This document shows positions 30,133-50,573 of a DNA stretch of 64,000 nt, piece after piece. The position numbers were made by a program, and so were the translations under genes. The notes below the pieces were generated by a model, which did not search any database, had not been told where the DNA came from, and saw only the letters and a list, made by a program, of their open reading frames with translations. The DNA is from Candidatus Parcubacteria bacterium. Lineage in GTDB: Bacteria > Patescibacteriota > Minisyncoccia > Sungbacterales > SURF-37. The stretch lies in assembly GCA_003599755.1 (NCBI GenBank), contig QZJO01000009.1, positions 22,140-86,139 of the forward strand. Direction: 5' to 3'. Numbering within the stretch: the stretch's first letter is position 1; every line of letters starts with the position of its first letter.

Positions 30133-30214
30133 ACGCCTCCTTGAAAGAGCATTTTTTTGTCTCGAGAGCTATTTTCTATTATATTATATTTATATAAATA
30201 GTCAAGTCTATCCT

Positions 30215-30310
30215 CGCATTCTCAAGAATGTTGGAATGTTCCTGTCCCCTGCTTCGGATCTGTGGATTCTCGGGGCGGCGGCGATGGAGGCGTCGAGGTT
30301 TTTGATGGTG
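30215..30310. repeat. Island repeat R3
   Basis: CATTCTCAAGAATGTTGGAATG ... CTGTCCCCTG ... GGGGCGGCGGCGATGGAGGCGTCGAGG is about 85 % identical to R5. Confidence 0.6.
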
Positions 30311-30446
30311 GATTTCTATGAATTGGTCGAGCCTGCGTTATTGCCTAGGACTAGGAATGTGCAGAAAATACTGTGTTTCAGAGCTTGGGTTGAAAATAAC
30401 CATAAATCCTAGTACCATTGAAACAGAAGAGTCGTTATGCCGTCAG

Positions 30447-30677
30447 ATGTATAGTGGCATGAAATTTGAGTTTACGCAGCATGCCCGGCAGCGCTGTAAG
30501 GAACGACGCATTAGATTTCAAGACGTCAAAGCGGTTGTCTCGAATCCCTCTACGACAAAGATAACTGCAGCCGGAACTATTGAAGCCCGGGGTAGAATTC
30601 GCAGCAAGACACTGGTAGTAATTTTCGCGGTGAAGCGAGATCTGCGTATAATAATTACGGCATATTATGAAGTTTAG
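30447..30677 (+). CDS. DUF4258-domain protein, toxin-like
   Basis: MKFEFTQHARQRCKERRI matches DUF4258. Its stop overlaps the start of the next gene. Confidence 0.6.
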   Translation: MYSGMKFEFTQHARQRCKERRIRFQDVKAVVSNPSTTKITAAGTIEARGRIRSKTLVVIFAVKRDLRIIITAYYEV

Positions 30678-30885
30678 CTACGACAAATACGCTGACGCAG
30701 TGTATATACGAGCGAAGTCGGCAAAGATTAAAAGAACTGAAAAATTTCAGGACGATATTCTTATTGACTTTGATGCGGAAAACAAAGTCCGTGGTATAGA
30801 GATATTGAATGTATCCGAATGGCTATCTAAAGATAAAACTCCAAGCGTGGAAATCGGAAACCGCAAAATACCCATTCCGGCGTAG
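30667..30885 (+). CDS. DUF2283-domain protein, antitoxin-like partner of DUF4258
   Basis: 72 aa with YDKYADAVYIR...DFDAENKVRGIEI (DUF2283), overlapping the upstream gene by 11 nt. Confidence 0.6.
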   Translation: MKFSYDKYADAVYIRAKSAKIKRTEKFQDDILIDFDAENKVRGIEILNVSEWLSKDKTPSVEIGNRKIPIPA

Positions 30886-30897
30886 TGAACGAGTCAA

Positions 30898-30925
30898 AGG
30901 CCGCTCCTTTAGAGAGCGGCCTTTG
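30898..30925 (+). terminator. Hairpin terminator after the DUF2283 gene
   Basis: AAAGGCCGCTC-CTTTAGAG-AGCGGCCTTT. Confidence 0.55.
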
Positions 30926-30940
30926 TATTTCAATCGTCAA

Positions 30941-31055
30941 TCCGGTTTATTCTGATGTTCCTAAGAAGATCGGAATAAATGGAGATGGGCGGAAGATGGA
31001 TGATCGGATCTTTTGTGGGTTTGCGGGGCGGCGGCGATGGAGTTTATGCTGCTTC
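30941..31055. repeat. Island repeat R4
   Basis: TCCGGTTTATTCTGATGTTCCTAAGAAGATCGGAATAAATGGAG...GGGGCGGCGGCGATGGAG combines the R1-type 5' part with the R3/R5-type 3' part. Confidence 0.6.
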
Positions 31056-31066
31056 AGCTATGACGG

Positions 31067-31462
31067 TTAGCTTTGGAACTCCGGCTTCGAAAGATATTCC
31101 TCGGGAATGATTTTCGCTTTGATGGTCTTTGCTCCCTGGAGATAGGCCTTTGCTAACCGATGCACGCCGTCGATGACAACAAGTCGACCGTTGAATCGCC
31201 GAAGGAGGATCGGATATTGCAAGTCGGTGTCATCGACGCGTTTTTGATGCGCTGATGTCCCCGCCTCTCCGCGGATGACTTGCCATGGCGTGAGATTCCA
31301 ATCATCGGTGCCGTCCTGTTCCCAGACCGGCATATCGAAATGCCATACAAGTTCGTCGATCGCCACATCGATAATCGGCAGCGGCAACTCGCGGAGTTTT
31401 ACGGTGTCTACAAATAAATTGAGGCCGGCATCGGTCAGTATTTTGGGCGGTGTTTGTTCCAT
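31067..31462 (-). CDS. ParB/sulfiredoxin-fold nuclease-domain protein
   Basis: VVIDGVHRLAKAY carries a DGxHR motif typical of ParB N-terminal (ParBc) nuclease domains. Confidence 0.5.
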   Translation of the reverse strand: MEQTPPKILTDAGLNLFVDTVKLRELPLPIIDVAIDELVWHFDMPVWEQDGTDDWNLTPWQVIRGEAGTSAHQKRVDDTDLQYPILLRRFNGRLVVIDGVHRLAKAYLQGAKTIKAKIIPEEYLSKPEFQS

Positions 31463-38830: not shown

Positions 38831-39211
38831 TTAATTTAAATCTTTCAGGGAAATACTTTTGACCACGCTACCGTGATAAACTTTTCTCCTGTAATACAAG
38901 GCTAATCCGAGGAATAGGACGGTCAGCGTCGTAAAAACGCAGGCGCTCCACCAAAGAGCGAGCGGCTGGGAGGGCTCAATGGCGTAAGCAGTCCAGAAAC
39001 CGACTGCAATAGGTGCAATAAGCGCTACGAGCCATTGGAACAACTCGTAATGTCTAAGTTCATTCGCTTGCACAAGTTCCATGCCGATTTCATCGGGGAA
39101 TCGGACGGTTACTCTTGTTTGCCGCCCTATATGGGGAGCTGATTTATTATCAGAAGATTCTTCTTTTATGCGCCCGTTCTTCATCTTCGATCGGGATAAT
39201 TTGGTAATCAT
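38831..39211 (-). CDS. Small membrane protein downstream of lexA, candidate SOS-induced toxin
   Basis: Basic N-terminus followed by two TM helices (FQWLVALIAPIAVGFW ... CVFTTLTVLFLGLALYY). It either overlaps the lexA 3' end by 62 nt or starts at ATG 39082. Confidence 0.4.
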   Translation of the reverse strand: MITKLSRSKMKNGRIKEESSDNKSAPHIGRQTRVTVRFPDEIGMELVQANELRHYELFQWLVALIAPIAVGFWTAYAIEPSQPLALWWSACVFTTLTVLFLGLALYYRRKVYHGSVVKSISLKDLN

Positions 39212-39839
39212 CCATCCGTTCGACCTGAATCACCTGAATAACCTTTCCGAATATTTGGAAGTCCCGCCGTAGAATTATGGCTTTATGCTCGGAGTCCGAG
39301 GTAACTGGGGTGAGTACGATGGCATTATTGCCGAATGCGATTTTCTTAATCACGGCATTGTCGTCGATAATGGCAACGACGATATCTCCGGTTTGAACAT
39401 TCTGCGTCATTTCGGTAAGAACGAAATCGCCGTCGTGGATTCCGGCATCTTCCATCGACGAACCGACCGCTCGGATAACATAAACATTTTCACGGCCGGA
39501 GATCAGGCTCGCGGCCACGGGGATATATTCGTCGAACTGCCGGTCGGCAATCACGCTCGGACTGCCACACCCTGCGGAGGCGAATACTGGCACCTGCAAG
39601 ATTTCCTCGCGAGCTGGATCATCTTCGACAATTTGTATACCGCGGCGGGAAAACCGACCTCGTCGAATTAGCCCTTTACTTTCGAGTGCTTTCAAGTACT
39701 GGGTCACTGACCGAATGCTTTTGGCGCCGACTGCCTTTCCGATTTCAGCCAAAGTAGGTGCTTCTCCCCTCTGGGCAAGACATGCCTTAATAAAATCGTA
39801 AACGCATCGCTGATTTGCCGTGAGCAGAGCCGGTTTCAT
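39150..39839 (-). CDS. lexA: LexA-family repressor (S24 peptidase) with an extended C-terminal tail
   Basis: wHTH N-terminus, an Ala-Gly cleavage-site region (ASAGCG), Ser (GSSM) and Lys (IKKI) catalytic dyad context, and a ~40-aa extra C-terminal extension. Confidence 0.8.
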   Translation of the reverse strand: MKPALLTANQRCVYDFIKACLAQRGEAPTLAEIGKAVGAKSIRSVTQYLKALESKGLIRRGRFSRRGIQIVEDDPAREEILQVPVFASAGCGSPSVIADRQFDEYIPVAASLISGRENVYVIRAVGSSMEDAGIHDGDFVLTEMTQNVQTGDIVVAIIDDNAVIKKIAFGNNAIVLTPVTSDSEHKAIILRRDFQIFGKVIQVIQVERMDDYQIIPIEDEERAHKRRIF

Positions 39840-40693: not shown

Positions 40694-41047
40694 TCAGCGA
40701 AAGAGAACTGGTGCGTGATAGATCGCCCGAACCAACCAAACAAGAGCGACGAAAATACCGATGCCCGAGAACAACCTTCGGCTGGCGAGCGCGCGAGAGC
40801 GTCTTTCTTCGAACTCCGGATCACTGAAGATCTTGACCCTCGCACTGTCGGAGCCGTCCTGGTCGATCTCTTCCAGAGCCGCAAGTCTGGCGTCGAAGAA
40901 GGCGATCCAGTTATTAGCGCGGCCCGTCGCGCTCAGGATGAGCAGGTGCACAAATAGTCCGACCAGACTGATGACGAACTTCACCCACTCCGGTTGTCCT
41001 GTACCGAATACGATGGGCAATGCCACGGTGTTAAAGACCAGGAACAT
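40694..41047 (-). CDS. Hypothetical membrane protein (117 aa)
   Basis: Three hydrophobic helices. Located immediately upstream of the 45-aa gene, probably forming an operon with it. Confidence 0.5.
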   Translation of the reverse strand: MFLVFNTVALPIVFGTGQPEWVKFVISLVGLFVHLLILSATGRANNWIAFFDARLAALEEIDQDGSDSARVKIFSDPEFEERRSRALASRRLFSGIGIFVALVWLVRAIYHAPVLFR

Positions 41048-41232
41048 CTGAACCCGGCCTCACTGCTGTTGCATGTAGCTGCTGCGGACATTGCAGAGGC
41101 CCGTGTATATGTTAGGTTCGCCGTTTTGCACGGTTGTTCCCCTTTCTCCGCTGGCGTCGCTTTATTTCCTTTACCATGTTTGAACTTAAAAATCAAGAAG
41201 ATATTTCTCGAATTGCAGGATAATTTTTAGTC

Positions 41233-41254
41233 CCAAACCAAAACCGCCCGCAAG
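41233..41254. repeat. 22-nt exact repeat CCAAACCAAAACCGCCCGCAAG, copy 2
   Basis: Second copy, about 190 nt upstream of the operon at 40540-41047. Confidence 0.6.
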
Positions 41255-41570
41255 GGGTCGCCCCCTCACCTCCTCCGGTCCTCCCATTCAAATGAGCCGT
41301 GCTCCTTTGAAGCCTCGAAACTCCTCTGCCCCTGGCCGTGTCCTATCAAATAACACGCCGGATCACGAACGGTTCGGCTGATGGGGCGCCCAAGGCCCCC
41401 GACAATGTCCGCCAGGCGGACGCCAGCGGTCGCTGGTACCCTCAAGGGGTCAGGCGGCTTTTTTTATTGCGCGAGGCGGTTGCCATTTCTCCAAAATAGT
41501 GGTTTATTTTCCATAGTCCCGCTCTTCTCAGAACCGTGCGCGGCAGTCCCACCCCCACAAGGAGGAACGC

Positions 41571-42419
41571 GTGAACACGCTGCTCTTCGCCGACGCCCAG
41601 GTGTTTTCCGACCTCGCCCCGGAGCGCGACGACGCGCCGCTCCACTACGAGCAGGACCTCGCCTACGACACGGGCTTCTACCAGATCCGCAAGGCCATCG
41701 ACTGCGGCCTCTGGGGATCCGCGGAGCTGGACCTCAACCAGATGATCACCGCGGTGAACCAGCACGAGACTCCGGCCAGCCGCTTCGCGAAGCTCGAGTG
41801 GACCCCCGCGGTGCGCGGCGCCAAGACCGCCCTGCTCGCCGAGCGCGGCGTCCGGCCGATCCACATCGAGGAGTATGAGACGTGGTGCGCATGGCTCCCG
41901 CGCGCGAGCCGGTTCCCCGACGACGGGACGCGCGCGTGGACCTACCGCTTCGACTCCGTCCCCTTCTCGGTGCGCGAGGTGATCGCCGCGGCCATGCGGG
42001 CCGAGGCCTTCGAGTCGTTCGAGATCCGGTTCCCGGCCGAGCCCAAGGCGGTGGATCCGGTCCTGTTCGGGAAGATCGGACGCGTCGCCTACCTCATCGC
42101 GCGCTGGGGCGCGGAGCAGTTCCTCACGCTCGATCAGGTCCGGATGGGACTCGAAGCGCGGCAGCGGCATGACCGCCTGGACCAGTGGTGCAACCGCACC
42201 GTGAACAACGGGTCTGTCTTCCTCGGCGGCACCGTGGGCTCGGGCCTCGCGAGCGCGTTCATCAGCTTCGGTTTCCTCGGAGACCACCCGCTCCTGCTCC
42301 CCCTCGGCGTCCTCAGCGGCGTCGCCGCCGCGGCGGTCATGCTCAGCGTCGAGAAGCTCTTCTTCCGGAAGAAGATGGCAGCGATTCGCGCGGAATGCCC
42401 CTACGCGTTCGCGTCGTGA
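41571..42419 (+). CDS. Hypothetical protein with a C-terminal double TM anchor
   Basis: AAGGAGGAACGC-GTG start. 282 aa with a soluble N-domain and a C-terminal hydrophobic pair. The long antisense ORF 41442-42593 is judged spurious. Confidence 0.5.
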   Translation: MNTLLFADAQVFSDLAPERDDAPLHYEQDLAYDTGFYQIRKAIDCGLWGSAELDLNQMITAVNQHETPASRFAKLEWTPAVRGAKTALLAERGVRPIHIEEYETWCAWLPRASRFPDDGTRAWTYRFDSVPFSVREVIAAAMRAEAFESFEIRFPAEPKAVDPVLFGKIGRVAYLIARWGAEQFLTLDQVRMGLEARQRHDRLDQWCNRTVNNGSVFLGGTVGSGLASAFISFGFLGDHPLLLPLGVLSGVAAAAVMLSVEKLFFRKKMAAIRAECPYAFAS

Positions 42420-42446
42420 AGCAGTAAGCGGCAAACGCCGCACCCG

Positions 42447-42473
42447 CCGGCTCGGGAACGTTCCCGAGCCGGC
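42447..42473 (+). terminator. Perfect palindromic hairpin terminator
   Basis: GCCGGCTCGGGAACGTTCCCGAGCCGGC followed by GAAATATTTT. Confidence 0.55.
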
Positions 42474-42561
42474 GAAATATTTTAAATAAAGGCCTGGCTT
42501 TGCTTGAACGCCGAATCGCGCAATAATGCGCAAAGAACCAGCCCTTACCAAGGAGGCCGCT

Positions 42562-42972
42562 ATGGCGTGGCACCACGTGCGCACCGCGGGCATCGCGCTC
42601 CTCGCCGTGCTTCTCTGGACGCATGCCAGCTGCTACTTCGCAGAGTTCCTGCATCTCGGCGTCATGGCAACGCTCGTCCCGGCGCTGTGGATCTGCATCC
42701 TGATCGCGGATCATCTTTGCTTCTATCGGAAGATCGCTGCGTCGCCACTCTCGGCTGCCCACCAGGATACCTATATGCGCGCGCCGACCATCATGATCGG
42801 AGCCATGATCGCGACCCTGGGCCTGTATCGCGTCGGTCTTTTCACGTATGCGGATATGGCGCGCACCGTGATCGCGGGCACGATCGTCATCGCGGCCATA
42901 CGCATCGGGTTCATCATCCACATGCGACGCGCAAAGCGGGATGCGTCCGCCGCGCTGCGACGGGTACGCTAA
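42562..42972 (+). CDS. Hypothetical membrane protein (136 aa)
   Basis: AAGGAGG RBS. Four predicted TM helices. Confidence 0.5.
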   Translation: MAWHHVRTAGIALLAVLLWTHASCYFAEFLHLGVMATLVPALWICILIADHLCFYRKIAASPLSAAHQDTYMRAPTIMIGAMIATLGLYRVGLFTYADMARTVIAGTIVIAAIRIGFIIHMRRAKRDASAALRRVR

Positions 42973-43000
42973 CCGGAACATCCGGAACGGAGGGGAACCC

Positions 43001-43294
43001 ATGACCGAACAGGAGATCACGTTCTTCACGATCGGGCTTGTCGCGTTGGCCGGCGGACTCCTCATGACGCCGATCTTCATGGGCTTCGCGGTCGCTCGCC
43101 CGCTCCTGCTCGTCGCCGCGGGCTTCTGGGCCACCGTATTCGCGGTGTCCGCCGTGAGCGCCGCGATCCACTGGGACGGCCTGCAGCCCAAGGACATGCC
43201 CGGAATAATGGGAGGCCTCATTCCGTTTTCCGCCATATGCCTCGGCATCACCGGCTACAAGGCGTTTCGCGCGCGGAACAGAGAACTGGCGTAA
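43001..43294 (+). CDS. Hypothetical membrane protein (97 aa)
   Basis: GGAGGGGAA RBS. Three TM helices. Followed by a hairpin plus CTTCTTCTTTT tail. Confidence 0.5.
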   Translation: MTEQEITFFTIGLVALAGGLLMTPIFMGFAVARPLLLVAAGFWATVFAVSAVSAAIHWDGLQPKDMPGIMGGLIPFSAICLGITGYKAFRARNRELA

Positions 43295-43302
43295 ACCACA
43301 CA

Positions 43303-43354
43303 CTCGCGCAAGCCGCCCTGCGGCGGGAAGAATCCGCCACCGCAGTCGGCGGCT
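43303..43354 (+). terminator. Tandem hairpins plus GGCTTCTTCTTTT tail
   Basis: CCGCC-CTGC-GGCGG and CCGCCACCGCAGTCGGCGG followed by CTTCTTCTTTTG. This is the conserved terminator-tail type of this block. Confidence 0.5.
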
Positions 43355-43433
43355 TCTTCTTTTGACTCAAATAAAAACCGGCCCGCCGAGTGCGATACTT
43401 TGCACCCAACGGGCCGTAGCTATATATCTCCTT

Positions 43434-44024
43434 TCATCGGCTATGCCGGGTGTGGAAGAACCGTTTCGTTTCGACGATGATCTGACGGCCGAGATCGGTC
43501 ACGCCGGCGGCGTTCTCATCCAGGTTCAGCGACAGCGCGCCTCCCTTGCCGGAATCGCTTTGCACCATGCCTTGCCCCGTGAGGAATCCGAGCGTCTCGC
43601 GCAGCGCCGTGCGGTTGATGGAAGGGAGCTTCAGCTGGCCGAGCTTCCGCTCGACGTTCTGCAGCACCGAGTCCTCTTTCAAGGCATGTCCGCCGGCGAA
43701 GATTCGCCGACTCCCCGGCCTGGCAAAGCCGTAGACCAGCACGAGCTGCACATGGATGTGCGGCACGGGCAAGGACGCGTCGAGCCGCAGCGCGCGGTGC
43801 GGCTCGAGCCGCTGAAACTGCTTCATCGCGGCCGCAGTCCGACGCGCTTCCTTCTTTTGCTGCCGCGCCACCCAGCGCAGGGTCTGGCGCTCGGCCTCGG
43901 CCAGTTCCGCCCGGAGCCGGTCGGAGTTCTCGAGGCCCACGCGGCGGACGATCTGCGCGAACCAGCCCATCTGGATCGAAGGATACAGCTCTCGCAGCTG
44001 CCGAAACTCGCGTTCGATGTCCAC
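43434..44024 (-). CDS. Hypothetical protein (196 aa)
   Basis: AAGGAG lies 7 nt upstream of GTG 44024. The protein is more protein-like than the antisense plus-strand ORF 43362-44087. Confidence 0.4.
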   Translation of the reverse strand: MDIEREFRQLRELYPSIQMGWFAQIVRRVGLENSDRLRAELAEAERQTLRWVARQQKKEARRTAAAMKQFQRLEPHRALRLDASLPVPHIHVQLVLVYGFARPGSRRIFAGGHALKEDSVLQNVERKLGQLKLPSINRTALRETLGFLTGQGMVQSDSGKGGALSLNLDENAAGVTDLGRQIIVETKRFFHTRHSR

Positions 44025-44108
44025 CGATGGTCTCCTTGTCGGGGTTTCGAAGATCTGAATCGCGCGGTAATTAGTATACTAAAATAGTTGATTTGTCAAT
44101 CTATGCCG

Positions 44109-44139
44109 TTGATAGCTGCTCTAGAAAATGCTTAGCTGA
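44109..44139 (+). promoter_or_regulatory. Conserved promoter module P1 (TTGATA-N17-TGCTTAGCTGA)
   Basis: -35-like hexamer, 17-nt spacer and an extended -10-like TGCTTAGCT. Near-identical modules occur at 45802, 46304 and 48521. Confidence 0.5.
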
Positions 44140-44222
44140 GCACAGTTCCCCGCTCCTTTCCATTCCTCCTTCCCAGCCGGAAGTGCTGCCCGAACAACAC
44201 TTCCGCACTGGGAGGGAAACCT

Positions 44223-44681
44223 ATGCAAGAGGATCGATCGCTGCAACGAATCTCGCGCCGCGAAGCCCTAAAGTCAGCGCTGATCCAGCCAGGTATCGCG
44301 GCATTCGGCCTGGGCGTCGTCGCCGCCGTAATGGTTCTACTCGTGACCTCGCAGCCACTGGTGGCGAAGGTGCCGACGAGCTTCCTCGGCTATCCAGTGA
44401 CTATGCAGGACCTCGGTCGACTATGCGCCGTCGCGTTCTTCGTCCTGTCGCCACTGATGTTCATTCCATTCAGCTATCGCGACCTTCGGAAGAACTTCGT
44501 CCGGTGTCTGGAATGCGGCAAGCAACGATCACTTCATGCGATCGAACATCTCCGCGCCATGCGTCGGTGCGGGACCTGCCACCACGAGCTCCCGCCCCAG
44601 CTTCGATCGCAACCGCGAACCGGAGAAAAGCTATCGACCAACCAACTCATACTTCGGTACTTGCGAGCGCTCAATCGCTAG
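44223..44681 (+). CDS. Membrane protein with a C-terminal zinc-ribbon
   Basis: GGGAGGGAAAC RBS. Two TM helices, then CLECGK...CGTCHH (a CxxC-N17-CxxC motif). Confidence 0.55.
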   Translation: MQEDRSLQRISRREALKSALIQPGIAAFGLGVVAAVMVLLVTSQPLVAKVPTSFLGYPVTMQDLGRLCAVAFFVLSPLMFIPFSYRDLRKNFVRCLECGKQRSLHAIEHLRAMRRCGTCHHELPPQLRSQPRTGEKLSTNQLILRYLRALNR

Positions 44682-44701
44682 AACCTCGATAAGGAGGGGT
44701 C

Positions 44702-45070
44702 ATGGAAAAACTGATCGCCGCGATCTGGGGATTCACCCCTGACTGGTGGAGCTACGGCGACCCCACGGTGCGTACCATGGTGCTCGGCGTCGTGACGCTC
44801 ACGATCCTGATGGCCAGTGCCATGATCGGCATGGCCGTACTCGGACTCATCGCATATCTCCGGCGGCAACCGACCAGCTCTCGCCTAGTGAGACTCGAAC
44901 TCGCAATCTCTCTCGGGATGGTCGCGGGAGCCGCCATCATCCAGGTGCTTCCGCTTCATCTCGGTCCGCGCCTAGCCCTCACCATCGCGCTTCTCGCGCT
45001 CTGCCTCACCGCCACTGCGATCTATATTGCGGATGGGACCTCCAAGAGGAGGATATCCCATGAGCGCTGA
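44702..45070 (+). CDS. Hypothetical membrane protein (122 aa)
   Basis: AAGGAGGGG RBS. Four TM helices. Confidence 0.5.
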   Translation: MEKLIAAIWGFTPDWWSYGDPTVRTMVLGVVTLTILMASAMIGMAVLGLIAYLRRQPTSSRLVRLELAISLGMVAGAAIIQVLPLHLGPRLALTIALLALCLTATAIYIADGTSKRRISHER

Positions 45071-45227
45071 GACGCGCGAAGTCCTCTGCCTGATCTTCAT
45101 CCCGACTGCCAGCTTCGCGGCACTCTGGCTCGGGGTCGGCGCGCTCCTGTGGTTCAAGCCACACCTCTGGGACATCGCCGGCGATGCGGCAAAGTCCCCG
45201 CCGCTCGTCGAAGAGGAGATGCAATGA
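45060..45227 (+). CDS. Small membrane protein (55 aa)
   Basis: GAGGAGGA RBS. The start overlaps the upstream stop by 11 nt. One TM helix. Confidence 0.4.
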   Translation: MSAETREVLCLIFIPTASFAALWLGVGALLWFKPHLWDIAGDAAKSPPLVEEEMQ

Positions 45228-45739
45228 TGACCGACAAGCTCGTCGCGCTTCAGTTCAAAGATGAGCAGGGATTCGCGCGCGGCCTTGAAGCACTCGAAGC
45301 GCGAAGCGAGATTCCGTACTCGCTTCCCGGCAATCGAAACATCGCGCTGCCGACATCGGCACTGGGCTGGTTCGTGGCCGAGCTCCGACGTCTTTCCGTC
45401 AAATTCGAGGAGATTCCGGTGGTCGATGCCAGCGATCTTCCCGAAGGCAAGGCCGACCGGATCCGTCGGTCGGCGCGCGCATCCTCACCGCGCATGTTGA
45501 TTCGGGTTCGGAACGCAGAACGCCTGGCGCAGTTACTCCAGCTTCTCATTCGAACGGACTGTCCGTTCGTCTATCTCGGATCGGAGGAAGGCATCGTCGT
45601 CCGCTACGAGGACTGGACGCGATTCGTGCCCGATCAGTCCATGTTCGAGGGTTTCGAACATCGGGCCGTGTCCCAGATAACCCTCGACCTGCTCGCGATT
45701 CGAGGTAAGCCGCACCTCGCCGAGTTCCTCGGCATGTAA
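45224..45739 (+). CDS. Hypothetical soluble protein (171 aa), last gene of a translationally coupled 4-gene operon
   Basis: GAGGAG RBS, with ATGA start/stop overlap to the upstream gene. No recognisable domain. Confidence 0.5.
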   Translation: MMTDKLVALQFKDEQGFARGLEALEARSEIPYSLPGNRNIALPTSALGWFVAELRRLSVKFEEIPVVDASDLPEGKADRIRRSARASSPRMLIRVRNAERLAQLLQLLIRTDCPFVYLGSEEGIVVRYEDWTRFVPDQSMFEGFEHRAVSQITLDLLAIRGKPHLAEFLGM

Positions 45740-45760
45740 TCGCCCACCGCCCGCACGGAA

Positions 45761-45795
45761 GCCCGCCGTGCATCGCGGCGGGCTTCTTCTTTTTC
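45761..45795 (+). terminator. Hairpin plus GGCTTCTTCTTTTT terminator
   Basis: GCCCGCCG-TGCATCG-CGGCGGGC followed by TTCTTCTTTTTC. Confidence 0.55.
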
Positions 45796-45801
45796 GCCTT
45801 C

Positions 45802-45831
45802 TTGACGTCCCTGGCCGGCATGCTTAGCTGG
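45802..45831 (+). promoter_or_regulatory. Conserved promoter module P2 (TTGACG-N16-TGCTTAGCTG)
   Basis: Same architecture as P1, P3 and P4. It is followed by ~430 nt with no convincing ORF, then a conserved terminator. Confidence 0.5.
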
Positions 45832-46267
45832 AGTCAGCGATTCCCCTTAAACAAAATCGTGCGTCAGCGACAATCCGTGGGACGGGTCGTGCCTGGAAGT
45901 ACACGCGTAACGACACAGCGCTATACTGCGCTGGGACCCGAGTAATCACTCGGCGAACACCCACCGCCGTGACGGGGCTCATCCTGGGAATCGCCCCAGA
46001 CGCAACGCAGCATGTAAATCGCGGCAGGCATGTGACGGTAGAGAGGGTGACCTATCGCCGTACTCGGAGAATCCTCACGGAGGCACGGGCTGATGCTCGT
46101 CGCTGCTGACGCACGAGGTCAATTGCGAGCTAACCGGCTCGCATCGCTGTGGCGCAGGCGTCGGAAATTACGCTGGCCTGATAGTATAGTGAGGGGCTCA
46201 TCCACCCTCTCCCTTCCTGGTCAGGTCCGCGGACTTGCCGCCGGCGCTTGCGCCACACTCGATCACC

Positions 46268-46296
46268 GCCACCTAGCAGAGGTGGCGGCTTCTTTT
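46268..46296 (+). terminator. Hairpin plus GGCTTCTTTTG terminator
   Basis: GCCACCT-AGCAG-AGGTGGC followed by GGCTTCTTTTG. Confidence 0.5.
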
Positions 46297-46303
46297 GCTC
46301 TTC

Positions 46304-46333
46304 TTGACGTTCCTGGCCAATGTGCTTAGCTGA
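46304..46333 (+). promoter_or_regulatory. Conserved promoter module P3 (TTGACG-N16-TGCTTAGCTGA)
   Basis: Identical core to P2. Lies upstream of gtrA. Confidence 0.5.
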
Positions 46334-46403
46334 GCGCAGTTCTCCTTCCTCCCAGCCGAAAACGCCTCTCGCTCCGAGAGACCTTTCCGCCCTGGGAGGA
46401 AAA

Positions 46404-46802
46404 ATGCTCAGCCCTTCACAACTCTCTCAGATGCTTCGGTTTTCGACAGCCGGAGCCGCGACCGTTTCTCTGTACTACCTCCTGCTGGCTTTCCTGACGG
46501 AGGTGCTAGGGTTCTGGTACCTCACCTCATCCATCGCGGCGTTCCTGATTGGCTACGCAACGAACTTCACGCTCCAGAAACTCTGGACGTTCAAGGAACG
46601 CAGCACGCACGCGCTATCTCGCCAAGTCACTCTTCATCTCGCTCTTCAGTTCGGGAACCTCGTGCTCAACACGACCCTTCTGTATCTCCTCGTGGAATAC
46701 GGACAACTCTGGTACATCACCGCACAGCTCATCCTGACCGTTGCGCTATCCATCGAGAGCTACTTCGTTTCGCGATGGATCTTCGCTTCCGTTAGCCGGT
46801 GA
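46404..46802 (+). CDS. GtrA-family membrane protein (polysaccharide/lipid-linked sugar translocation component)
   Basis: 132 aa with four TM helices and the GtrA-like pattern F..VG......Y.....L......Y..A...A......NF.L.K.WTF. Confidence 0.65.
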   Translation: MLSPSQLSQMLRFSTAGAATVSLYYLLLAFLTEVLGFWYLTSSIAAFLIGYATNFTLQKLWTFKERSTHALSRQVTLHLALQFGNLVLNTTLLYLLVEYGQLWYITAQLILTVALSIESYFVSRWIFASVSR

Positions 46803-46850
46803 CCCTGTTCGTGTCGTCCCAAAACAACGCTTCCGCACTGGGAGGGAAAC

Positions 46851-47363
46851 ATGACGTATGATCCGTCGCTGCAGCCCATATCCCCCGATACAATGGCGAA
46901 CCTCAAGATGGTCAAGGGCGCCGTTCTCGACCTGGGGCGTATCCATCTTGTCGAGCTCACTCGCGTGGTCGAGAGTAAAGAGATAGTTACCGACTACAAA
47001 ACGAAAAACCGAGTCCTTGGAACGATTCGAGAATCGGTCGAGCAGATCGATGCAATGCTTGCCGCCATCGTCCGAGAGCTCGAAGCTGCGGGCAAACTCG
47101 CTGGAGCTGTCCGGCAAACGCTGGGAGTAATCGACGGGGTGCATGCGGTCTTCTTCGAAAGGGAAGGGCGCGTCACGCACATCTGGACGGTTCTCTCCGC
47201 CGATGATCGAAGTGTCGAGGAGGCGGTCTACGCAGGCGAGAGAAAGATTATCGACAAGCTCGGTAGCACGCCTCTCGACTTCCACCTCGTCGTCCGCGAC
47301 GGCCGGCCGCTCGACGAGCGCTTCCCCCGCGCAACGTGTCTCTATAAGCGAACACTCAGGTAA
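46851..47363 (+). CDS. Hypothetical protein (170 aa)
   Basis: GGGAGGGAAAC RBS. Its 5'UTR and first residues (M..DPSLQPIS) are duplicated from the gene at 44223. Confidence 0.45.
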   Translation: MTYDPSLQPISPDTMANLKMVKGAVLDLGRIHLVELTRVVESKEIVTDYKTKNRVLGTIRESVEQIDAMLAAIVRELEAAGKLAGAVRQTLGVIDGVHAVFFEREGRVTHIWTVLSADDRSVEEAVYAGERKIIDKLGSTPLDFHLVVRDGRPLDERFPRATCLYKRTLR

Positions 47364-47429
47364 CCGGTCATCGCTAGAGAAGAGTTCCCTAACTATACAG
47401 AGGGTGCTTCTCACCCTGAGGAGGAAGAT

Positions 47430-47837
47430 ATGACCATGGTTCAGCCCGTCCTGCAAGACGATCCGTTCGCAGCGCCTGCCTGGAACGCGAGCGGCGCAAT
47501 CCTCGCACTCGAGAAGTTGCGCAGCGGCGAGCAGTTGGACAACAACGACCGTCGAGCGATCACGAAGACCGAGGAGTTCCTCCGCTCGCTGCAATGGGGA
47601 GATGCTCAAGAAGACGACCTTTCAGACGAAGCCCGGCGCAACCAGGAGTTCTTGCTGAGAGCGAACCGCTTCCGACCTACACTGGATATCGTCAATCTCC
47701 ACCTTCAATTCGAGGCGCTGATCAGCCAGCTCGAGGCGTCCGCAGGTCTGAACGAGGAAGTTCTCGGCTTCGTCCCGCAGATGCAGGACACGCTTCTCGA
47801 CGTTCTCCATGTGCTCAACATCTGCCGGCAGCGCTGA
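47430..47837 (+). CDS. Hypothetical protein (135 aa)
   Basis: GAGGAGGAAGAT RBS. Acidic, predicted helical. Confidence 0.45.
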   Translation: MTMVQPVLQDDPFAAPAWNASGAILALEKLRSGEQLDNNDRRAITKTEEFLRSLQWGDAQEDDLSDEARRNQEFLLRANRFRPTLDIVNLHLQFEALISQLEASAGLNEEVLGFVPQMQDTLLDVLHVLNICRQR

Positions 47838-47933
47838 AAAACCGAACGCCGTCGCCCGCGACGAGAAAGAAGCTCGTCACCCCGGGTGGCGGCTTCTTCT
47901 TTTTCGACGACGATCATAACGACTAGAAAAGAT

Positions 47934-48206
47934 TCAACCGACGACCGAAGTAGATACACCAGCCGAGGCCAGCGAAAAATAGAGTGCGTCGGCCACAGGG
48001 ATCACGCCGATCCGTCCAAGCATTATATTGCGCTCGTGATAAATCCACCAGCCGTCTGCTACTGCAACCTGCCCCCACACGCCCCACCACATCACCGCGA
48101 GAACCGCAAAGCCCAACAGCATGAAACGCTCAAAGGGCCGGACGCCTGATCGCCACCACATCAACAGCCCGATCAGTAGAAGGATGCCGTACGCGGCCAG
48201 ATTCAT
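47934..48206 (-). CDS. Lycopene-cyclase-domain (CrtYd-like) small membrane protein
   Basis: 90 aa with 3 TM helices. ATGA overlap with the upstream partner. Carries a degenerate IPVAD.LYF motif. Confidence 0.45.
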   Translation of the reverse strand: MNLAAYGILLLIGLLMWWRSGVRPFERFMLLGFAVLAVMWWGVWGQVAVADGWWIYHERNIMLGRIGVIPVADALYFSLASAGVSTSVVG

Positions 48207-48469
48207 AACGTATTGCGCTTAGCCCAGATCAGGATCGCGGCGACATTGTAGAAGGCAAGGACGAACAACAGCATCTCTTCGATCGGAACCCCGGCGACTG
48301 TCGCGATAATCCGGTTGTTGGGGAAATTGCCGAGATAGCGAATCCAAAACGCATCGAAGATTGACCAGTAGAGAATAGTAACCGCGAGCACAGCCGCGCC
48401 CCGCCAAGTTAGGAGACGACGGCCGACCCGGAAATCGCCCGCCGCATCAAAGGCGATACTGATCGGCAA
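48203..48469 (-). CDS. Lycopene-cyclase-domain (CrtYc-like) small membrane protein
   Basis: 88 aa with 3 TM helices. GVPIEEMLLFVL matches the PxEE(x)LFF motif of the heterodimeric lycopene cyclase domain. Confidence 0.55.
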   Translation of the reverse strand: MPISIAFDAAGDFRVGRRLLTWRGAAVLAVTILYWSIFDAFWIRYLGNFPNNRIIATVAGVPIEEMLLFVLAFYNVAAILIWAKRNTL

Positions 48470-48520
48470 TACAAAGCTGAAGCGGTCAACGCGCTGACCT
48501 ACCGTTCACACTGGTCGCCC

Positions 48521-48550
48521 TTGACCTCCCCCGCCAGCGTGCTTAGCTGA
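48521..48550 (+). promoter_or_regulatory. Conserved promoter module P4 (TTGACC-N16-TGCTTAGCTGA)
   Basis: Same architecture as P1-P3. Upstream of the Ham1 gene. Confidence 0.5.
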
Positions 48551-48601
48551 TTTCAGATTCCTCCCCCAGGCGCTTCACTGCTTCAGCCCTTAAGGAGCAC
48601 C

Positions 48602-49204
48602 ATGATGAAAATCACAGTAGGTTCGACCAATCCCGCGAAGATCGCCCAGATACGGGACGCCTTGGCGCCGGCAGGAATCGATGTCCGGGGCATAACAGAC
48701 AAACGACTCCTTCCAGAAGTAATCGAAGACCAGCGAAGCGTGCAAGAAAACGCGAGAAAGAAAGCTCTTGCTTACGCCAAGGCGCTCGGAGAATTGGTGC
48801 TCTCAGTGGACAATGCACTATTTCTCGACGGTCTGCCTCCCGAGCAACAGCCGGGCATGTACGTGCGACGCATCGGCGGCCGAGAAGCCGCGACTGATAC
48901 CGATCTTCTTCGTCATGGCTCGGAGCTCGTGCAATCTCTCGGCGGTCGGACTACCGGCTACTGGGAATATGGGATCTGCGTCGCCAGCCCGGAGGGCAAG
49001 ACGTGGGAAACCACTATTCGAACTCCGCGAGTGTTCACGAGCGAGGCAAGTTCCGCGATCGTGCCCGGCTATCCGCTCGAGTCGATCCAAATCGATCCGG
49101 AAACTGGAAAGTACATCGCGGAGATGACCGCAGCGGAACAAGCTGCGTTCTGGCAGAGAACGCTCGGCGAGCCCCTCCGGAAGTTTTTCGAAGGCATCAG
49201 ATGA
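48602..49204 (+). CDS. Non-canonical purine NTP pyrophosphatase (Ham1/RdgB/ITPase family)
   Basis: VGSTNPAKIAQI N-terminal motif and overall Ham1-fold pattern. AAGGAG RBS. Confidence 0.75.
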   Translation: MMKITVGSTNPAKIAQIRDALAPAGIDVRGITDKRLLPEVIEDQRSVQENARKKALAYAKALGELVLSVDNALFLDGLPPEQQPGMYVRRIGGREAATDTDLLRHGSELVQSLGGRTTGYWEYGICVASPEGKTWETTIRTPRVFTSEASSAIVPGYPLESIQIDPETGKYIAEMTAAEQAAFWQRTLGEPLRKFFEGIR

Positions 49205-49245
49205 AGCGACCCGCAGGCGCGCCAAACACGCCCATCGTTCGCACG

Positions 49246-49285
49246 GAAGCCCGCCGTCGCGTCAACGGTGGGCTTCTTCTTTTCG
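49246..49285 (+). terminator. Hairpin plus GGGCTTCTTCTTTTC terminator
   Basis: GCCCGCCGT-CGCGTCA-ACGGTGGGC followed by TTCTTCTTTTC. Confidence 0.5.
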
Positions 49286-49299
49286 CTCAATCACTGATG

Positions 49300-49316
49300 T
49301 GCGCAGGGCAGGATTC
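49300..49316 (-). repeat. 17-nt direct repeat of the tRNA-Tyr 3' end (att-core-like scar)
   Basis: TGCGCAGGGCAGGATTC is identical to 49506-49522, which is the discriminator plus acceptor 3' strand plus T-arm 3' half of tRNA-Tyr. Confidence 0.6.
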
Positions 49317-49505
49317 CGGCGTTACGCGCCTAGAACCGTCGCGGCACGCGCACTCTGTGCGCTAACACCGCCTTTGAAACCTTGCGGTTTCAATACTTCC
49401 GCCATGGGGAAACTTCCGTTTCCCCCACCCCCCTTCCCGAGGTTCGAATCTTGCCCGTTCATCAAAGTAGACAGAACCCGCGAGGGGTCCAGTATACTTC
49501 GTTAA

Positions 49506-49588
49506 TGCGCAGGGCAGGATTCGAACCTGCGTAGCCGTAAGGCGCCAGATTTACAGTCTGGTGTAATTGACCGCTCTACCACCTGCGC
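49506..49588 (-). tRNA. tRNA-Tyr (anticodon GUA), class II with long variable arm
   Basis: The reverse complement folds as acceptor GCGCAGG/CCTGCGC, anticodon stem-loop CCAGA-CTGTAAA-TCTGG, a 14-nt variable arm, and T arm GCAGG-TTCGAAT-CCTGC. Confidence 0.85.
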
Positions 49589-49741
49589 AAATTACTTCGT
49601 AATTTCGGCATGCTGCCGAGTCAATTACACCATGCCTTCGGCATATGTAATTGTTCCCAGGCATCCTACTGCGTCTGCCCTGTGCTGTAGCTTCGAGCGT
49701 ACTCGTAATGCCCGTTCAAAGCAAAGCCCTTTGCTTTGAAC

Positions 49742-49760
49742 CCGCTCTACCACCTGCGCG
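49742..49760 (-). repeat. Duplicated 5' fragment (19 nt) of tRNA-Tyr
   Basis: CCGCTCTACCACCTGCGC[G] repeats the acceptor 5' strand and D-arm start of tRNA-Tyr. It lies about 150 nt upstream of the intact gene. Confidence 0.6.
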
Positions 49761-49803
49761 AATAACTCCGTAATTACCGTACCTGATTTTCCCGCGCTTT
49801 CGA

Positions 49804-49875
49804 AGCCACCTCTCGGATTTGAACCGAGGACCTACTGTTTACAAAACAGTTGCTCTGCCGCTGAGCTAAGGTGGC
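49804..49875 (-). tRNA. tRNA-Thr (anticodon UGU)
   Basis: Reverse complement GCCACCTTAGCTCAGCGGCAGAGCAACTGTTTTGTAAACAGTAGGTCCTCGGTTCAAATCCGAGAGGTGGCT folds as a 72-nt cloverleaf. Confidence 0.85.
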
Positions 49876-49922
49876 AACGAAAGGGCGGGACTGCTCTGCC
49901 GGCAGAAGAGTCTGCCGCGTTG

Positions 49923-50573
49923 CTACGCGATCGATATATCGCTCTCGCTGACGGCCGCTGTTTTTTTCTTCGACATGCGGCGGGGCTTCGGATTCGCTGC
50001 ATCAGCGTCCCCCATTCCGGACGCCGAGCGAACGCGCAATCGTTTCGGGCGCGCGATCACGGTTGATTGCAATGTTCTCTCGATACGACTCGGGACGAGT
50101 ACGGATACGGCTTCGGCAGCGGCGGCTTCAACCGGCGGCGCGATCGGCGAAATCGCGACTTCGGCCCGCGCCGATTTCGGCTCGGCCGGCGCATCGGATA
50201 CGAGCCGCGTATCGGTTTTGAACCCTTTCAGATTCTCCCAGTAACGCTGCCGCTCTTCCGCAAAGTCGCGGCTTTTGGCTTCCAAGATCGACGCAAGATG
50301 ATATACGGAGCGCTCCATGCGGAGTAGGCGCACGCGGATCAAATTGAGCGCCCAGAGTGCCGTCGTATACCAAAGATCATAGTAGCGCTGCTCGCGGAAG
50401 AACCGCGCGACCGCTTCCACGAGGCGCTTGAGGCGGCTCGGGCGCGTGACGAAACTTTCCTCAATCAATTGCTGCGGCACCTGCAAGAGCAGCGGGATCT
50501 TGCGCCACACGAGGACGCCCGCACCGCCGAAGCTCGCCAGGAATACCGCGAGCAGAGTCAGATCGAGAGCCAT
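49923..50573 (-). CDS. Hypothetical N-terminally anchored protein (216 aa)
   Basis: N-terminal TM helix, a basic/helical middle and a Pro/Ala-rich C-terminus. Confidence 0.45.
   Translation of the reverse strand: MALDLTLLAVFLASFGGAGVLVWRKIPLLLQVPQQLIEESFVTRPSRLKRLVEAVARFFREQRYYDLWYTTALWALNLIRVRLLRMERSVYHLASILEAKSRDFAEERQRYWENLKGFKTDTRLVSDAPAEPKSARAEVAISPIAPPVEAAAAEAVSVLVPSRIERTLQSTVIARPKRLRVRSASGMGDADAANPKPRRMSKKKTAAVSESDISIA

What the first reader, a model, noticed from the sequence alone, without database searches (positions are those of the whole stretch)
45838..46268. Orphan promoter-terminator unit of about 430 nt without a convincing ORF, a candidate structured ncRNA
Conserved promoter P2 and a conserved terminator bracket 430 nt in which the only ORF (46093-46329) is Arg/Leu-rich and runs through the terminator and the next promoter.

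The interval contains many stable local hairpins (for example GCGAGC-TAACCG-GCTCGC) and a long-range AGAGGGTG/CACCCTCT pairing.

One internal segment (GGGGCTCATCCTGGGAATCGCCCC) loosely resembles the tmRNA 5' acceptor region, but no T-arm or tag frame is evident, so that identification is not supported.
Basis: inference. Interest (0 to 1): 0.6.

Follow-up and report, generated by a model that had tools for sequence, protein, structure and literature searches.

The report
Orphan structured noncoding RNA gene
A bacterium of the Parcubacteria group (candidate phyla radiation) carries a stand-alone promoter-to-terminator unit that most likely makes a tightly folded RNA of about 460 bases with no protein-coding signal and no match to any known RNA family; no relatives were found, so its function is unknown.

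Summary
Window 45836-46296 (+) lies between a promoter-like module (TTGACG-N13-TGCTTAGCTG-N4-CAG) and a GC-rich hairpin with a U-run. The same promoter module heads three neighbouring operons and occurs nowhere else in the 64 kb. All four units end in terminators with a shared tail.

The interval has no coding signature. Codon periodicity collapses, all six frames contain stops, and the 78-aa ORF has no real homologues and would run through the terminator.

The plus strand folds far better than shuffles (z -6.1 to -6.9). Among 136 windows of 471 nt, only the window holding two tRNAs is more extreme.

Rfam gave nothing relevant even at E<=10, and ARAGORN at default settings found no tmRNA. RNase P and SRP RNA are not supported either.

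The host is an NCBI "Candidatus Parcubacteria bacterium" genome assembled from a metagenome, and nothing appears to be annotated at this position. All three flanking proteins tested have no homologues other than themselves. Synteny with the nearest genomes (RpsB 65% identical) stops at tRNA-Tyr, about 3.2 kb from the RNA. Every homologue hunt failed, so covariation could not be tested.

Verdict: a credible, lineage-specific, structured noncoding RNA gene of unknown class. A trans-acting regulatory or protein-binding role is inferred only. Interest is moderate.

The parts
45757..45797 (+). Intrinsic terminator of the upstream 171-aa gene. It separates that operon from the RNA unit.
   Evidence: 14-pair stem with 10 GC pairs, followed by TCTTTTTCGC.
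45802..45837 (+). Promoter P2. It reads -35 TTGACG (45802-07), extended -10 TGC-TTAGCT inside the invariant block TGCTTAGCTG (45821-30), then a conserved CAG (45835-37). The start site is inferred at A45836.
   Evidence: Four copies in the window, all on the + strand, each following a terminator or preceding a leader. The start site is an inference, not a measurement.
45836..46296 (+). Predicted primary transcript of about 460 nt, non-coding and highly structured.
   Evidence: for the fold; for the lack of coding signal; for no Rfam family.
45842..45856 (+). Predicted single-stranded 5' segment UCCCCUUAAACAAAA (C/U- then A-rich). Alternatively, 45837-45845 (GCGAUUCCC) can pair perfectly with 45986-45994 (GGGAAUCGC).
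   Evidence: unpaired probability above 0.8. The 9-bp alternative is read directly from the sequence.
45857..46116 (+). Domain 1, a multibranched fold closed by a perfect 12-bp helix (45857-68 with 46105-16). It contains an 8-bp helix (45874-81 with 46074-81) and the hairpins 45916-45933 and 46085-46100. It also has a long arm at 45938-46067, built from helices of 7, 6, 5 and 5 bp with pair probability of at least 0.96.
   Evidence: repeat I2; pair probabilities; z = -3.35.
45974..45984 (+). First copy of the internal repeat GGGGCUCAUCC, preceded by GUGAC. It lies near the tip of the long arm and is the start of the tmRNA-like segment 45974-45997.
   Evidence: (repeat D6), 32 and 72: an exact internal repeat of at least 11 nt occurs in 3% of shuffles of the RNA.
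46125..46142 (+). Hairpin GCGAGCU-AACC-GGCUCGC between the two domains.
   Evidence: 7 bp, pair probability 0.98.
46149..46256 (+). Domain 3, a long hairpin. It has a 16-bp GC-rich basal helix (46149-64 with 46241-56), then 3-bp and 8-bp helices (46175-82 with 46220-27). Its tip is C/U-rich: CUCAUCCACCCUCUCCCUUCC.
   Evidence: (repeat I1), (z = -6.0 for 46125-46260).
46193..46203 (+). Second copy of GGGGCUCAUCC, preceded by GUGA, at the tip of domain 3.
46266..46297 (+). Intrinsic terminator of the RNA unit: CCGCCACCU-AGCAG-AGGUGGCGG followed by CUUCUUUUG.
   Evidence: pair probability 0.99; tail shared with the other three units.
46093..46329 (+). The 78-aa ORF (GGAGG-N9-ATG). I reject it as a gene.
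   Evidence: It runs through the terminator and the P3 promoter. Its codon-position GC is 0.72/0.58/0.52, against about 0.64/0.42/0.72 in real genes. Its only hits are repeat artefacts.
46304..46339 (+). Promoter P3 of the GtrA operon, which marks the downstream boundary of the unit.

Best explanation
Window 45836-46296 (+) is a stand-alone gene for a non-coding, highly structured RNA of about 460 nt. It belongs to a lineage-specific class that is so far an orphan.

How it is made. It is transcribed from a cluster-specific promoter (TTGACG-N13-TGCTTAGCTG-N4-CAG) that it shares with three neighbouring operons. One starts with a zinc-ribbon protein, one with a GtrA-like membrane protein, and one encodes a Ham1-family NTP pyrophosphatase. 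The RNA is therefore probably co-regulated with them. Transcription stops at its own intrinsic terminator.

What the product looks like. The product works as folded RNA. It has a 260-nt multibranched domain closed by a 12-bp helix, a small hairpin, and a 108-nt long-hairpin domain with a 16-bp base.

Inferred mechanism (low confidence, about 0.2). It may act in trans as a riboregulator or protein-binding RNA. It exposes C/U-rich segments: the 5' UCCCCUU, and the apical CUCAUCC motif present twice followed by CCCUCUCCCUUCC. These resemble the anti-Shine-Dalgarno strands in the leaders of the neighbouring mRNAs.

Shown versus inferred. Shown: the promoter and terminator modules, the lack of coding signal, and the exceptional predicted fold on one strand. 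Inferred: that it is transcribed, its exact ends, and its function.
For: - The promoter module occurs four times within 4.4 kb, only on the + strand. Each copy sits after a terminator or before a leader and start codon, and there are none elsewhere in 64 kb.
- Terminators flank the unit, and the terminator tail is conserved among the four units.
- Codon-position GC periodicity falls to a range of 0.12 or less across 45800-46190, against 0.2-0.4 in the flanking genes. Stops occur in all six frames.
- The 78-aa ORF has no real homologue.
- The locus tags of the two flanking genes recovered (C4552_02350 and _02360) leave room for one gene between them, presumably GtrA. That suggests NCBI annotated nothing at the RNA.
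- MFE z = -6.1 on the + strand against -3.15 on the - strand. It ranks second of 136 windows, behind only the window with two tRNAs.
- Both domains are individually significant. Most major helices have pair probability of at least 0.96.
- The internal repeat of at least 11 nt has P = 0.03.
Against: - There is no expression data.
- No homologue was found in 80 loci from related candidate-phyla-radiation (CPR) genomes, one metagenome scan, two viral scans, or the phage and plasmid collections. The structure therefore rests on thermodynamics alone, with no covariation.
- The -10 element is non-canonical, and the generic scan calls no promoter.
- The RNA has no complementarity to the neighbouring leaders above background: -23 to -27.5 kcal/mol, against a background of -26.4 +/- 4.1. 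The trans-regulator mechanism therefore has no direct support.
Confidence: 0.6

Rival explanations
1. It is an evolutionary leftover. A duplicated promoter/terminator cassette would now enclose decayed or junk sequence. Any transcript would have no function, and the predicted structure would be incidental.
For: The cluster is built from reused modules: four promoters, four terminators and three copies of a ribosome-binding-site module. A 40-nt direct repeat, 80% identical, sits 502 nt apart (repeat D1). No homologue exists anywhere I searched.
Against: The fold z-score of -6 to -7 is an outlier against 135 other windows and is strand-specific. The sequence shows no DNA or translated similarity to neighbouring genes above shuffled controls. 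No trace of codon periodicity remains. Genomes of this bacterial group are small (PMC4508563, abstract seen), so unused sequence is less expected here; that last step is my inference.
Confidence: 0.15
2. It is a long cis-acting leader or attenuator. Transcripts from P2 would either stop at 46266-46297 or read through into the GtrA operon, depending on a signal sensed by the folded leader.
For: It lies directly upstream of the GtrA operon and in the same orientation. It ends in an intrinsic terminator, as attenuators do. The neighbouring leaders are themselves structured and sequester their ribosome-binding sites.
Against: A complete copy of the promoter (P3) and a full leader lie between the terminator and GtrA, so the operon does not need read-through. 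About 430 nt is far longer than known leaders, by general knowledge. I found no obvious antiterminator alternative to the terminator stem, whose pair probability is 0.99. No riboswitch or T-box hit was found.
Confidence: 0.08
3. It is an mRNA for a small protein, either the 78-aa ORF at 46093-46329 or the 46-aa ORF at 45969-46109.
For: GGAGG lies 9 nt upstream of ATG46093.
Against: The 78-aa ORF runs through the terminator and the next promoter. Codon-position GC is flat or inverted. No periodicity is present. An exhaustive phmmer search found only tandem-repeat artefacts, and no gene caller in the library predicted it. It has no Pfam hit. The 46-aa ORF has no Shine-Dalgarno sequence.
Confidence: 0.05
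4. It is a highly diverged housekeeping RNA that escapes current models: a tmRNA (possibly permuted), an RNase P RNA or an SRP RNA. Such divergence has been reported for RNase P RNA in CPR bacteria.
For: From my memory of the E. coli tmRNA, 45974-45997 resembles its 5' end at about 18 of 22 positions. ARAGORN at an 80% threshold proposes a tag-like frame at 46160-46192 (VGNYAGLIV followed by two stops, containing N-Y-A). From memory, GGUCAGGUCCG (46220-30) is identical to part of SRP RNA domain IV. Lui et al. 2021 (PMC8172020) found that 10 of 35 circularised CPR genomes had RNase P RNAs detectable only below Rfam's noise cut-offs.
Against: No tmRNA, RNase P or SRP model scores even at E<=10 on the RNA alone. 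ARAGORN at default settings finds nothing, and its low-threshold call uses the upstream gene's terminator as the T-arm. By inspection there is no strand complementary to GGGGCUC, no T-loop and no 3' CCA context. By inspection there is also no GAGGAAAGUCC or ACAGAA..GGCUUA signature of the RNase P P4 helix, and no GNRA/AGCA partner for the SRP-like 11-mer.
Confidence: 0.04
5. It is a DNA-level repeat element, such as a miniature inverted-repeat transposable element (MITE) or a palindromic element, whose inverted repeats merely mimic RNA structure.
For: Two long inverted repeats are present: 12 bp perfect and 17 bp at 88%.
Against: No second copy exists in the 64 kb, even with 7-nt seeds. None was found in 80 related loci. 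The fold is clearly better on the + strand than on the - strand, whereas a DNA palindrome would be symmetric.
Confidence: 0.03

Closest known systems
Independently transcribed bacterial sRNAs with intrinsic terminators and exposed C/U-rich regions that pair with ribosome-binding sites (for example RsaE and RNAIII of Staphylococcus, cited from general knowledge)
   Same: It has its own promoter, its own intrinsic terminator and no ORF. It has predicted unpaired C/U-rich stretches (UCCCCUU; CUCAUCCACCCUCUCCCUUCC). It sits among mRNAs with strong GGGAGG Shine-Dalgarno sequences.
   Different: At about 460 nt it is several times longer than typical sRNAs of this kind. No target complementarity above background was found. 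No homologues were found.
Large ornate bacterial ncRNAs (OLE, GOLLD, ROOL, raiA motif, HEARO/omega RNA)
   Same: It is over 400 nt, multi-domain, has an exceptionally stable predicted fold and is of unknown biochemical function.
   Different: It matches none of their Rfam models. Those classes are defined by covariation across many genomes, whereas this is a single sequence. It has no associated IscB, TnpB or OapA-type gene.
tmRNA (SsrA)
   Same: It has a 5'-acceptor/D-loop-like string, GGGGCUCAUCCUGGGAAUCG. It has a short frame containing N-Y-A that ends in two stop codons. Its size is about right.
   Different: It has no acceptor 3' strand, no T-arm and no CCA. No covariance-model or default ARAGORN hit was found. 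The GGGG lies 138 nt inside the transcript.
Diverged RNase P RNAs of CPR bacteria (Lui et al. 2021, PMC8172020)
   Same: It comes from the same bacterial group, has the same size range, and is missed at Rfam's standard thresholds.
   Different: Those RNAs were recovered by lowering the cmsearch thresholds and keep many conserved RNase P features. Here nothing appears at E<=10, and the signature sequences of the P4 helix are absent by inspection.

Membership tests
tmRNA | A tRNA-like domain: the 5' GGGG strand paired to a 3' strand with G3:U70, followed by NCCA | tested here: not met
   By inspection, no strand complementary to GGGGCUC lies next to a CCA. ARAGORN at default settings is negative.
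tmRNA | A T-arm with a T-loop (GUUCRANYC type) | tested here: not met
   None is found by inspection. The only T-arm in ARAGORN's 80%-threshold call is the upstream gene's terminator.
tmRNA | A tag reading frame with a resume codon | tested here: inconclusive
   ARAGORN at the 80% threshold proposes VGNYAGLIV followed by two stops at 46160-46192 and reports 'Tag not identified'. This could be chance.
tmRNA | A match to the Rfam tmRNA covariance models (standard, alpha, beta, cyano) | tested here: not met
   No hit at the gathering threshold or at E<=10.
Bacterial RNase P RNA | The P4 helix with conserved regions CR-I (GAGGAAAGUCC) and CR-V (ACAGAA..GGCUUA), and a covariance-model match | tested here: not met
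   No RNase P model scores at E<=10. The signature strings are absent on inspection; the signatures themselves are recalled from general knowledge.
SRP RNA | The domain IV (helix 8) motif with a GNRA tetraloop and conserved internal loops, and a covariance-model match | tested here: not met
   Only an 11-nt identity (GGUCAGGUCCG, recalled from memory) is present. In the predicted fold it is the 3' strand of a helix. No SRP model hit was found.
Any Rfam 15 family (including OLE, GOLLD, ROOL, raiA, HEARO, 6S, riboswitches) | A covariance-model score at or near the family's threshold | tested here: not met
   Within the RNA the only hits at E<=10 are two matches to 22- to 35-position viral models, at 12.8 and 16.5 bits.
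Stand-alone bacterial ncRNA gene (a general kind, not a family) | Its own promoter | tested here: met
   The module is conserved four times in the cluster and positioned as a promoter in the other three units. Its function as a promoter is inferred, not measured.
Stand-alone bacterial ncRNA gene (a general kind, not a family) | Its own intrinsic terminator | tested here: met
Stand-alone bacterial ncRNA gene (a general kind, not a family) | Absence of coding potential | tested here: met
Stand-alone bacterial ncRNA gene (a general kind, not a family) | A conserved structure supported by covariation | tested here: inconclusive
   No homologue was obtainable. Only thermodynamic support exists.
Stand-alone bacterial ncRNA gene (a general kind, not a family) | A detected transcript | not testable with these tools
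   No expression data are available here.
Riboswitch or attenuator leader | A terminator acting directly on the downstream ORF with no intervening promoter | tested here: not met
   A full P3 promoter and leader lie between the terminator and GtrA.

The most novel reading that the evidence does not exclude
This is the first seen member of a new class of large (about 460 nt), multi-domain structured ncRNA from a deep-branching Parcubacteria lineage. It belongs to a small local regulon defined by an unusual promoter (extended -10 TGC-TTAGCT), reused terminators, and leaders that lock their own Shine-Dalgarno sequences. The RNA would be the trans-acting or protein-binding component of that regulon.
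Probability: 0.3. Interest if true: 0.65.

Novelty: new member of a known kind. Interest (0 to 1): 0.45.

Why it matters
Bacteria of the candidate phyla radiation have small genomes, so a dedicated promoter-to-terminator unit spending about 460 nt on a highly folded non-coding RNA suggests a real function. Structured bacterial RNAs above 400 nt are rare. Several of them (OLE, GOLLD, ROOL, HEARO) later turned out to have unexpected biochemistry.

The locus also gives a compact experimental handle. It holds four units with the same unusual promoter, matched terminators and leaders that sequester their ribosome-binding sites. These could reveal how transcription and translation signals work in a group with almost no experimental genetics.

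The value is limited for now, because this is a single sequence with neither covariation nor expression evidence.

Tried and rejected
1. Known RNA families. I ran Rfam at the gathering threshold on the whole window, and at E<=10 on 45600-46500 and on the RNA alone. Within the RNA nothing but two weak matches to short viral motifs appeared.

2. tmRNA. ARAGORN at default settings found none. At lowered thresholds it gives mutually overlapping, contradictory calls that reuse terminators as T-arms, so I rejected them.

3. Homologues by synteny.
- The upstream 171-aa protein found nothing in genome contigs.
- The protein searches for the 171-aa, GtrA and 170-aa proteins returned only the query's own protein.
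- None of those proteins is on record in the contig look-up.
- RpsB fetched 80 loci from related genomes, the best 65% identical.
- Synteny (prfB-rpsB-tsf-X-tRNA-Thr-tRNA-Tyr) ends at tRNA-Tyr.
- nhmmer and blastn with the RNA and a single-sequence covariance model of domain 3 found nothing in those loci.

4. Homologues by DNA pattern.
- The single metagenome scan used GGGGCTCATCC-N193-223-GGGGCTCATCC and returned 49 unrelated loci, such as Clp N-domain repeats, membrane proteins and CRISPR repeats. It did not find the source contig.
- Two viral scans gave chance hits in GC-rich coding sequence.
- blastn against the phage and plasmid collections found nothing.

5. Decayed duplicate of a neighbouring gene. 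blastn, tblastx and Smith-Waterman alignment against shuffled controls showed nothing above chance.

6. Trans-pairing with neighbouring leaders and ribosome-binding sites. Windowed duplex energies were no better than for random segments.

7. GGAUGAG as a target motif at start codons. I found no association.

8. Genomic island with an attachment-site repeat of the tRNA-Tyr 3' end. None was found. Only a copy of the tRNA's 5' part is present.

9. Defence-system or phage context. PADLOC and PHROGs gave nothing, and NCBIfam matched only Ham1.

10. Partner-protein clue. The single-sequence AlphaFold2 models of the 171-aa and 170-aa neighbours were poor (pLDDT 55-57). Foldseek on the 171-aa model gave only generic ferredoxin-like matches. 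PDB sequence searches gave nothing.

11. Literature. I found no described ncRNA of this kind in Parcubacteria.

Full report
**Observation**

The interval is a discrete unit between expression signals.
- The upstream gene (171 aa, 45224-45739) ends with its own strong terminator at 45757-45787 plus a T-run.
- A promoter-like module follows at once: TTGACG (45802-07), then 13 nt, then TGCTTAGCTG (45821-30), then 4 nt, then CAG (45835-37).
- The same module occurs at 44111, 46304 and 48521. All copies are on the + strand, with a 10-nt invariant block and the invariant CAG.
- A relaxed search finds no further copy in the 64 kb.
- In the other three cases the module precedes a leader and a start codon, for the 152-aa zinc-ribbon protein, GtrA and Ham1. 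That is the basis for calling it a promoter.
- The generic sigma-70 scan misses it because the -10 reads TTAGCT.
- The unit ends in a 9-bp GC-rich hairpin at 46266-46288 followed by CUUCUUUUG.
- The terminators of all four units share the tail GGCTTCTT(CTT)TT.
I place the transcript at about 45836-46296.

**Not coding**

- All six frames contain stops.
- GC by codon phase, which separates by 0.2-0.4 in the flanking genes, collapses to 0.12 or less between 45800 and 46190.
- Real genes here have GC1/GC2/GC3 of about 0.64/0.42/0.72. The candidate ORFs have GC2 of 0.54-0.60 and no GC3 excess.
- The 78-aa ORF has a GGAGG 9 nt upstream, but it crosses the terminator and the P3 promoter.
- That ORF has no Pfam hit.
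- An exhaustive phmmer search of 1.84 billion representatives gave it only four hits. The two I inspected are translated tandem repeats. No entry corresponds to the ORF itself.
- The locus tags recovered are C4552_02350 (171 aa) and C4552_02360 (170 aa). They leave room for one gene between them, presumably GtrA, which suggests NCBI annotated nothing at the RNA.

**Structured, and on the + strand**

- The 471-nt stretch folds at -219 kcal/mol with z = -6.1. The reverse complement reaches only z = -3.15.
- Against 135 non-overlapping 471-nt windows of the same sequence (mean z -0.49, sd 1.5), it scores -6.9. Only the window holding tRNA-Thr and tRNA-Tyr is more extreme.
- The partition function gives well-defined helices:
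  - a 12-bp closing helix, 45857-68 with 46105-16 (P 0.99);
  - an 8-bp helix, 45874-81 with 46074-81;
  - a long arm at 45938-46067, made of 7-, 6-, 5- and 5-bp helices (P at least 0.96);
  - hairpins at 45916-33, 46085-100 and 46125-42;
  - a 108-nt hairpin domain with a 16-bp base, 46149-64 with 46241-56 (P 1.00).
- Domain 1 alone has z = -3.35, and domain 3 with the small hairpin has z = -6.0.
- An 11-nt motif, GGGGCUCAUCC, preceded by GUGA, occurs twice near the tips of the two large arms. An exact internal repeat of at least 11 nt appears in 3% of shuffles.

**Not a known RNA**

- Rfam 15 gives nothing relevant at the gathering threshold or at E<=10.
- ARAGORN at default settings finds no tmRNA. 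At lowered thresholds it produces contradictory calls that borrow terminators as T-arms.
- Three tmRNA-like resemblances occur in the right order: the 5' string at 45974-97, a frame at 46160-92 containing N-Y-A with a double stop, and a C/U-rich stretch after it.
- The defining tRNA-like domain is nonetheless absent: there is no acceptor 3' strand, no T-loop and no CCA.
- CPR bacteria are known to hide diverged RNase P RNAs below Rfam's cut-offs (PMC8172020). Here no RNase P model scores at all, and the P4 signature strings are missing.
- An 11-nt identity to SRP RNA domain IV has no supporting motif around it.

**Organism and comparative evidence**

- The flanking proteins identify the source as an NCBI "Candidatus Parcubacteria bacterium" genome assembled from a metagenome, on a contig of 263,839 bp.
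- The 171-aa, GtrA and 170-aa proteins have no relatives other than themselves in the 5.8-billion-protein index.
- The closest RpsB among 185,579 species representatives is 65% identical.
- In those genomes the block prfB-rpsB-tsf-X-tRNA-Thr-tRNA-Tyr is conserved, but similarity ends at tRNA-Tyr.
- The region of about 41-49.5 kb that holds the RNA is therefore lineage-specific.
- No search with the RNA found a relative. I tried nhmmer, blastn, a single-sequence covariance model, one metagenome pattern scan, two viral scans, and the phage and plasmid collections.
- Covariation, the standard proof of a functional structure, could not be tested.

**Function**

- The shared promoter argues for co-regulation with the three neighbouring operons.
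- The P1 and P3 leaders each form a 10-bp helix between an upstream C/U-rich strand and the Shine-Dalgarno region, with an inner hairpin (z -4.2 and -2.8).
- A ribosome-binding-site module, TTCCGCNCTGGGAGGRAA, occurs three times.
- The RNA exposes similar C/U-rich strings at its 5' end and at the tip of domain 3. That makes a trans-acting role at ribosome-binding sites, or a protein-binding role, the most natural guess.
- Complementarity to the neighbouring leaders is no better than to random segments.
- The neighbouring proteins give no clue.
- I rate "a real structured ncRNA gene" at about 0.6 and the specific mechanism at about 0.2.

**Verdict**

It is a new member of the general kind "stand-alone bacterial ncRNA gene", with no known family. 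Interest is moderate (0.45). The size, the fold strength and the CPR host are attractive, but it is a single sequence with no expression or covariation support.

Noticed in passing
window 44111-44138, 45802-45837, 46304-46339, 48521-48556 (+): A cluster-specific promoter module, TTGAC-N14-TGCTTAGCTG-N4-CAG, occurs four times within 4.4 kb and nowhere else in the 64 kb. Its -10 (TTAGCT after TGC) is non-canonical, which suggests a dedicated sigma factor or regulator, or promoter rules specific to this bacterial group.
   Followed up: partly
window 44138-44235 and 46332-46416 (+); ribosome-binding-site module at 44201, 46385, 46831: The leaders of the P1 and P3 operons share one architecture: a 10-bp helix between an upstream C/U-rich strand and the Shine-Dalgarno region, enclosing an inner hairpin (z -4.2 and -2.8). 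The module TTCCGCNCTGGGAGGRAA recurs three times. This may be a cis-regulatory element that locks translation.
   Followed up: partly
window 45757-45797, 46266-46297, 47867-47905, 49245-49285 (+): The four units end in terminators with the common tail GGCTTCTT(CTT)TT. The terminators after the 171-aa gene and after Ham1 are also alike upstream of the stem (CGCACGGAAGCCCGCCGT).
   Followed up: partly
window 49590-49803 (- strand), copy at 49742-49759: An 18-nt exact copy of the 5' part of tRNA-Tyr (acceptor and D arm) lies in the 214-nt spacer between tRNA-Thr and the complete tRNA-Tyr. The 471-nt window 49456-49926, which includes this spacer and both tRNAs, has the strongest fold z-score in the sequence (-8.5). 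It may be a remnant of a rearrangement or insertion in the tRNA gene.
   Followed up: partly
window about 41000-49500: Synteny with the nearest genomes (prfB-rpsB-tsf-X-tRNA-Thr-tRNA-Tyr) stops at the 3' end of tRNA-Tyr. Most proteins tested beyond it have no family match, and the three searched for homologues returned only themselves. It looks like a lineage-specific block next to a tRNA gene, but no integrase or attachment-site repeat was found.
   Followed up: partly
window 30160-31050: A low-GC insert carries a DUF4258/DUF2283 gene pair (30318-30677 and 30667-30885), which I take to be toxin-antitoxin-like from general knowledge. It is flanked by the direct repeat GGGGCGGCGGCGATGGAG near 30273 and 31027. 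The 471-nt window 30616-31086 has fold z = -5.9.
   Followed up: partly
window 35187-38027 (-) and 39150-39839 (-): An MmeI-type restriction-modification enzyme with all five MmeI domains, and a LexA-like repressor (S24 peptidase plus LexA DNA-binding domain), lie upstream of the block of genes without family matches.
   Followed up: no
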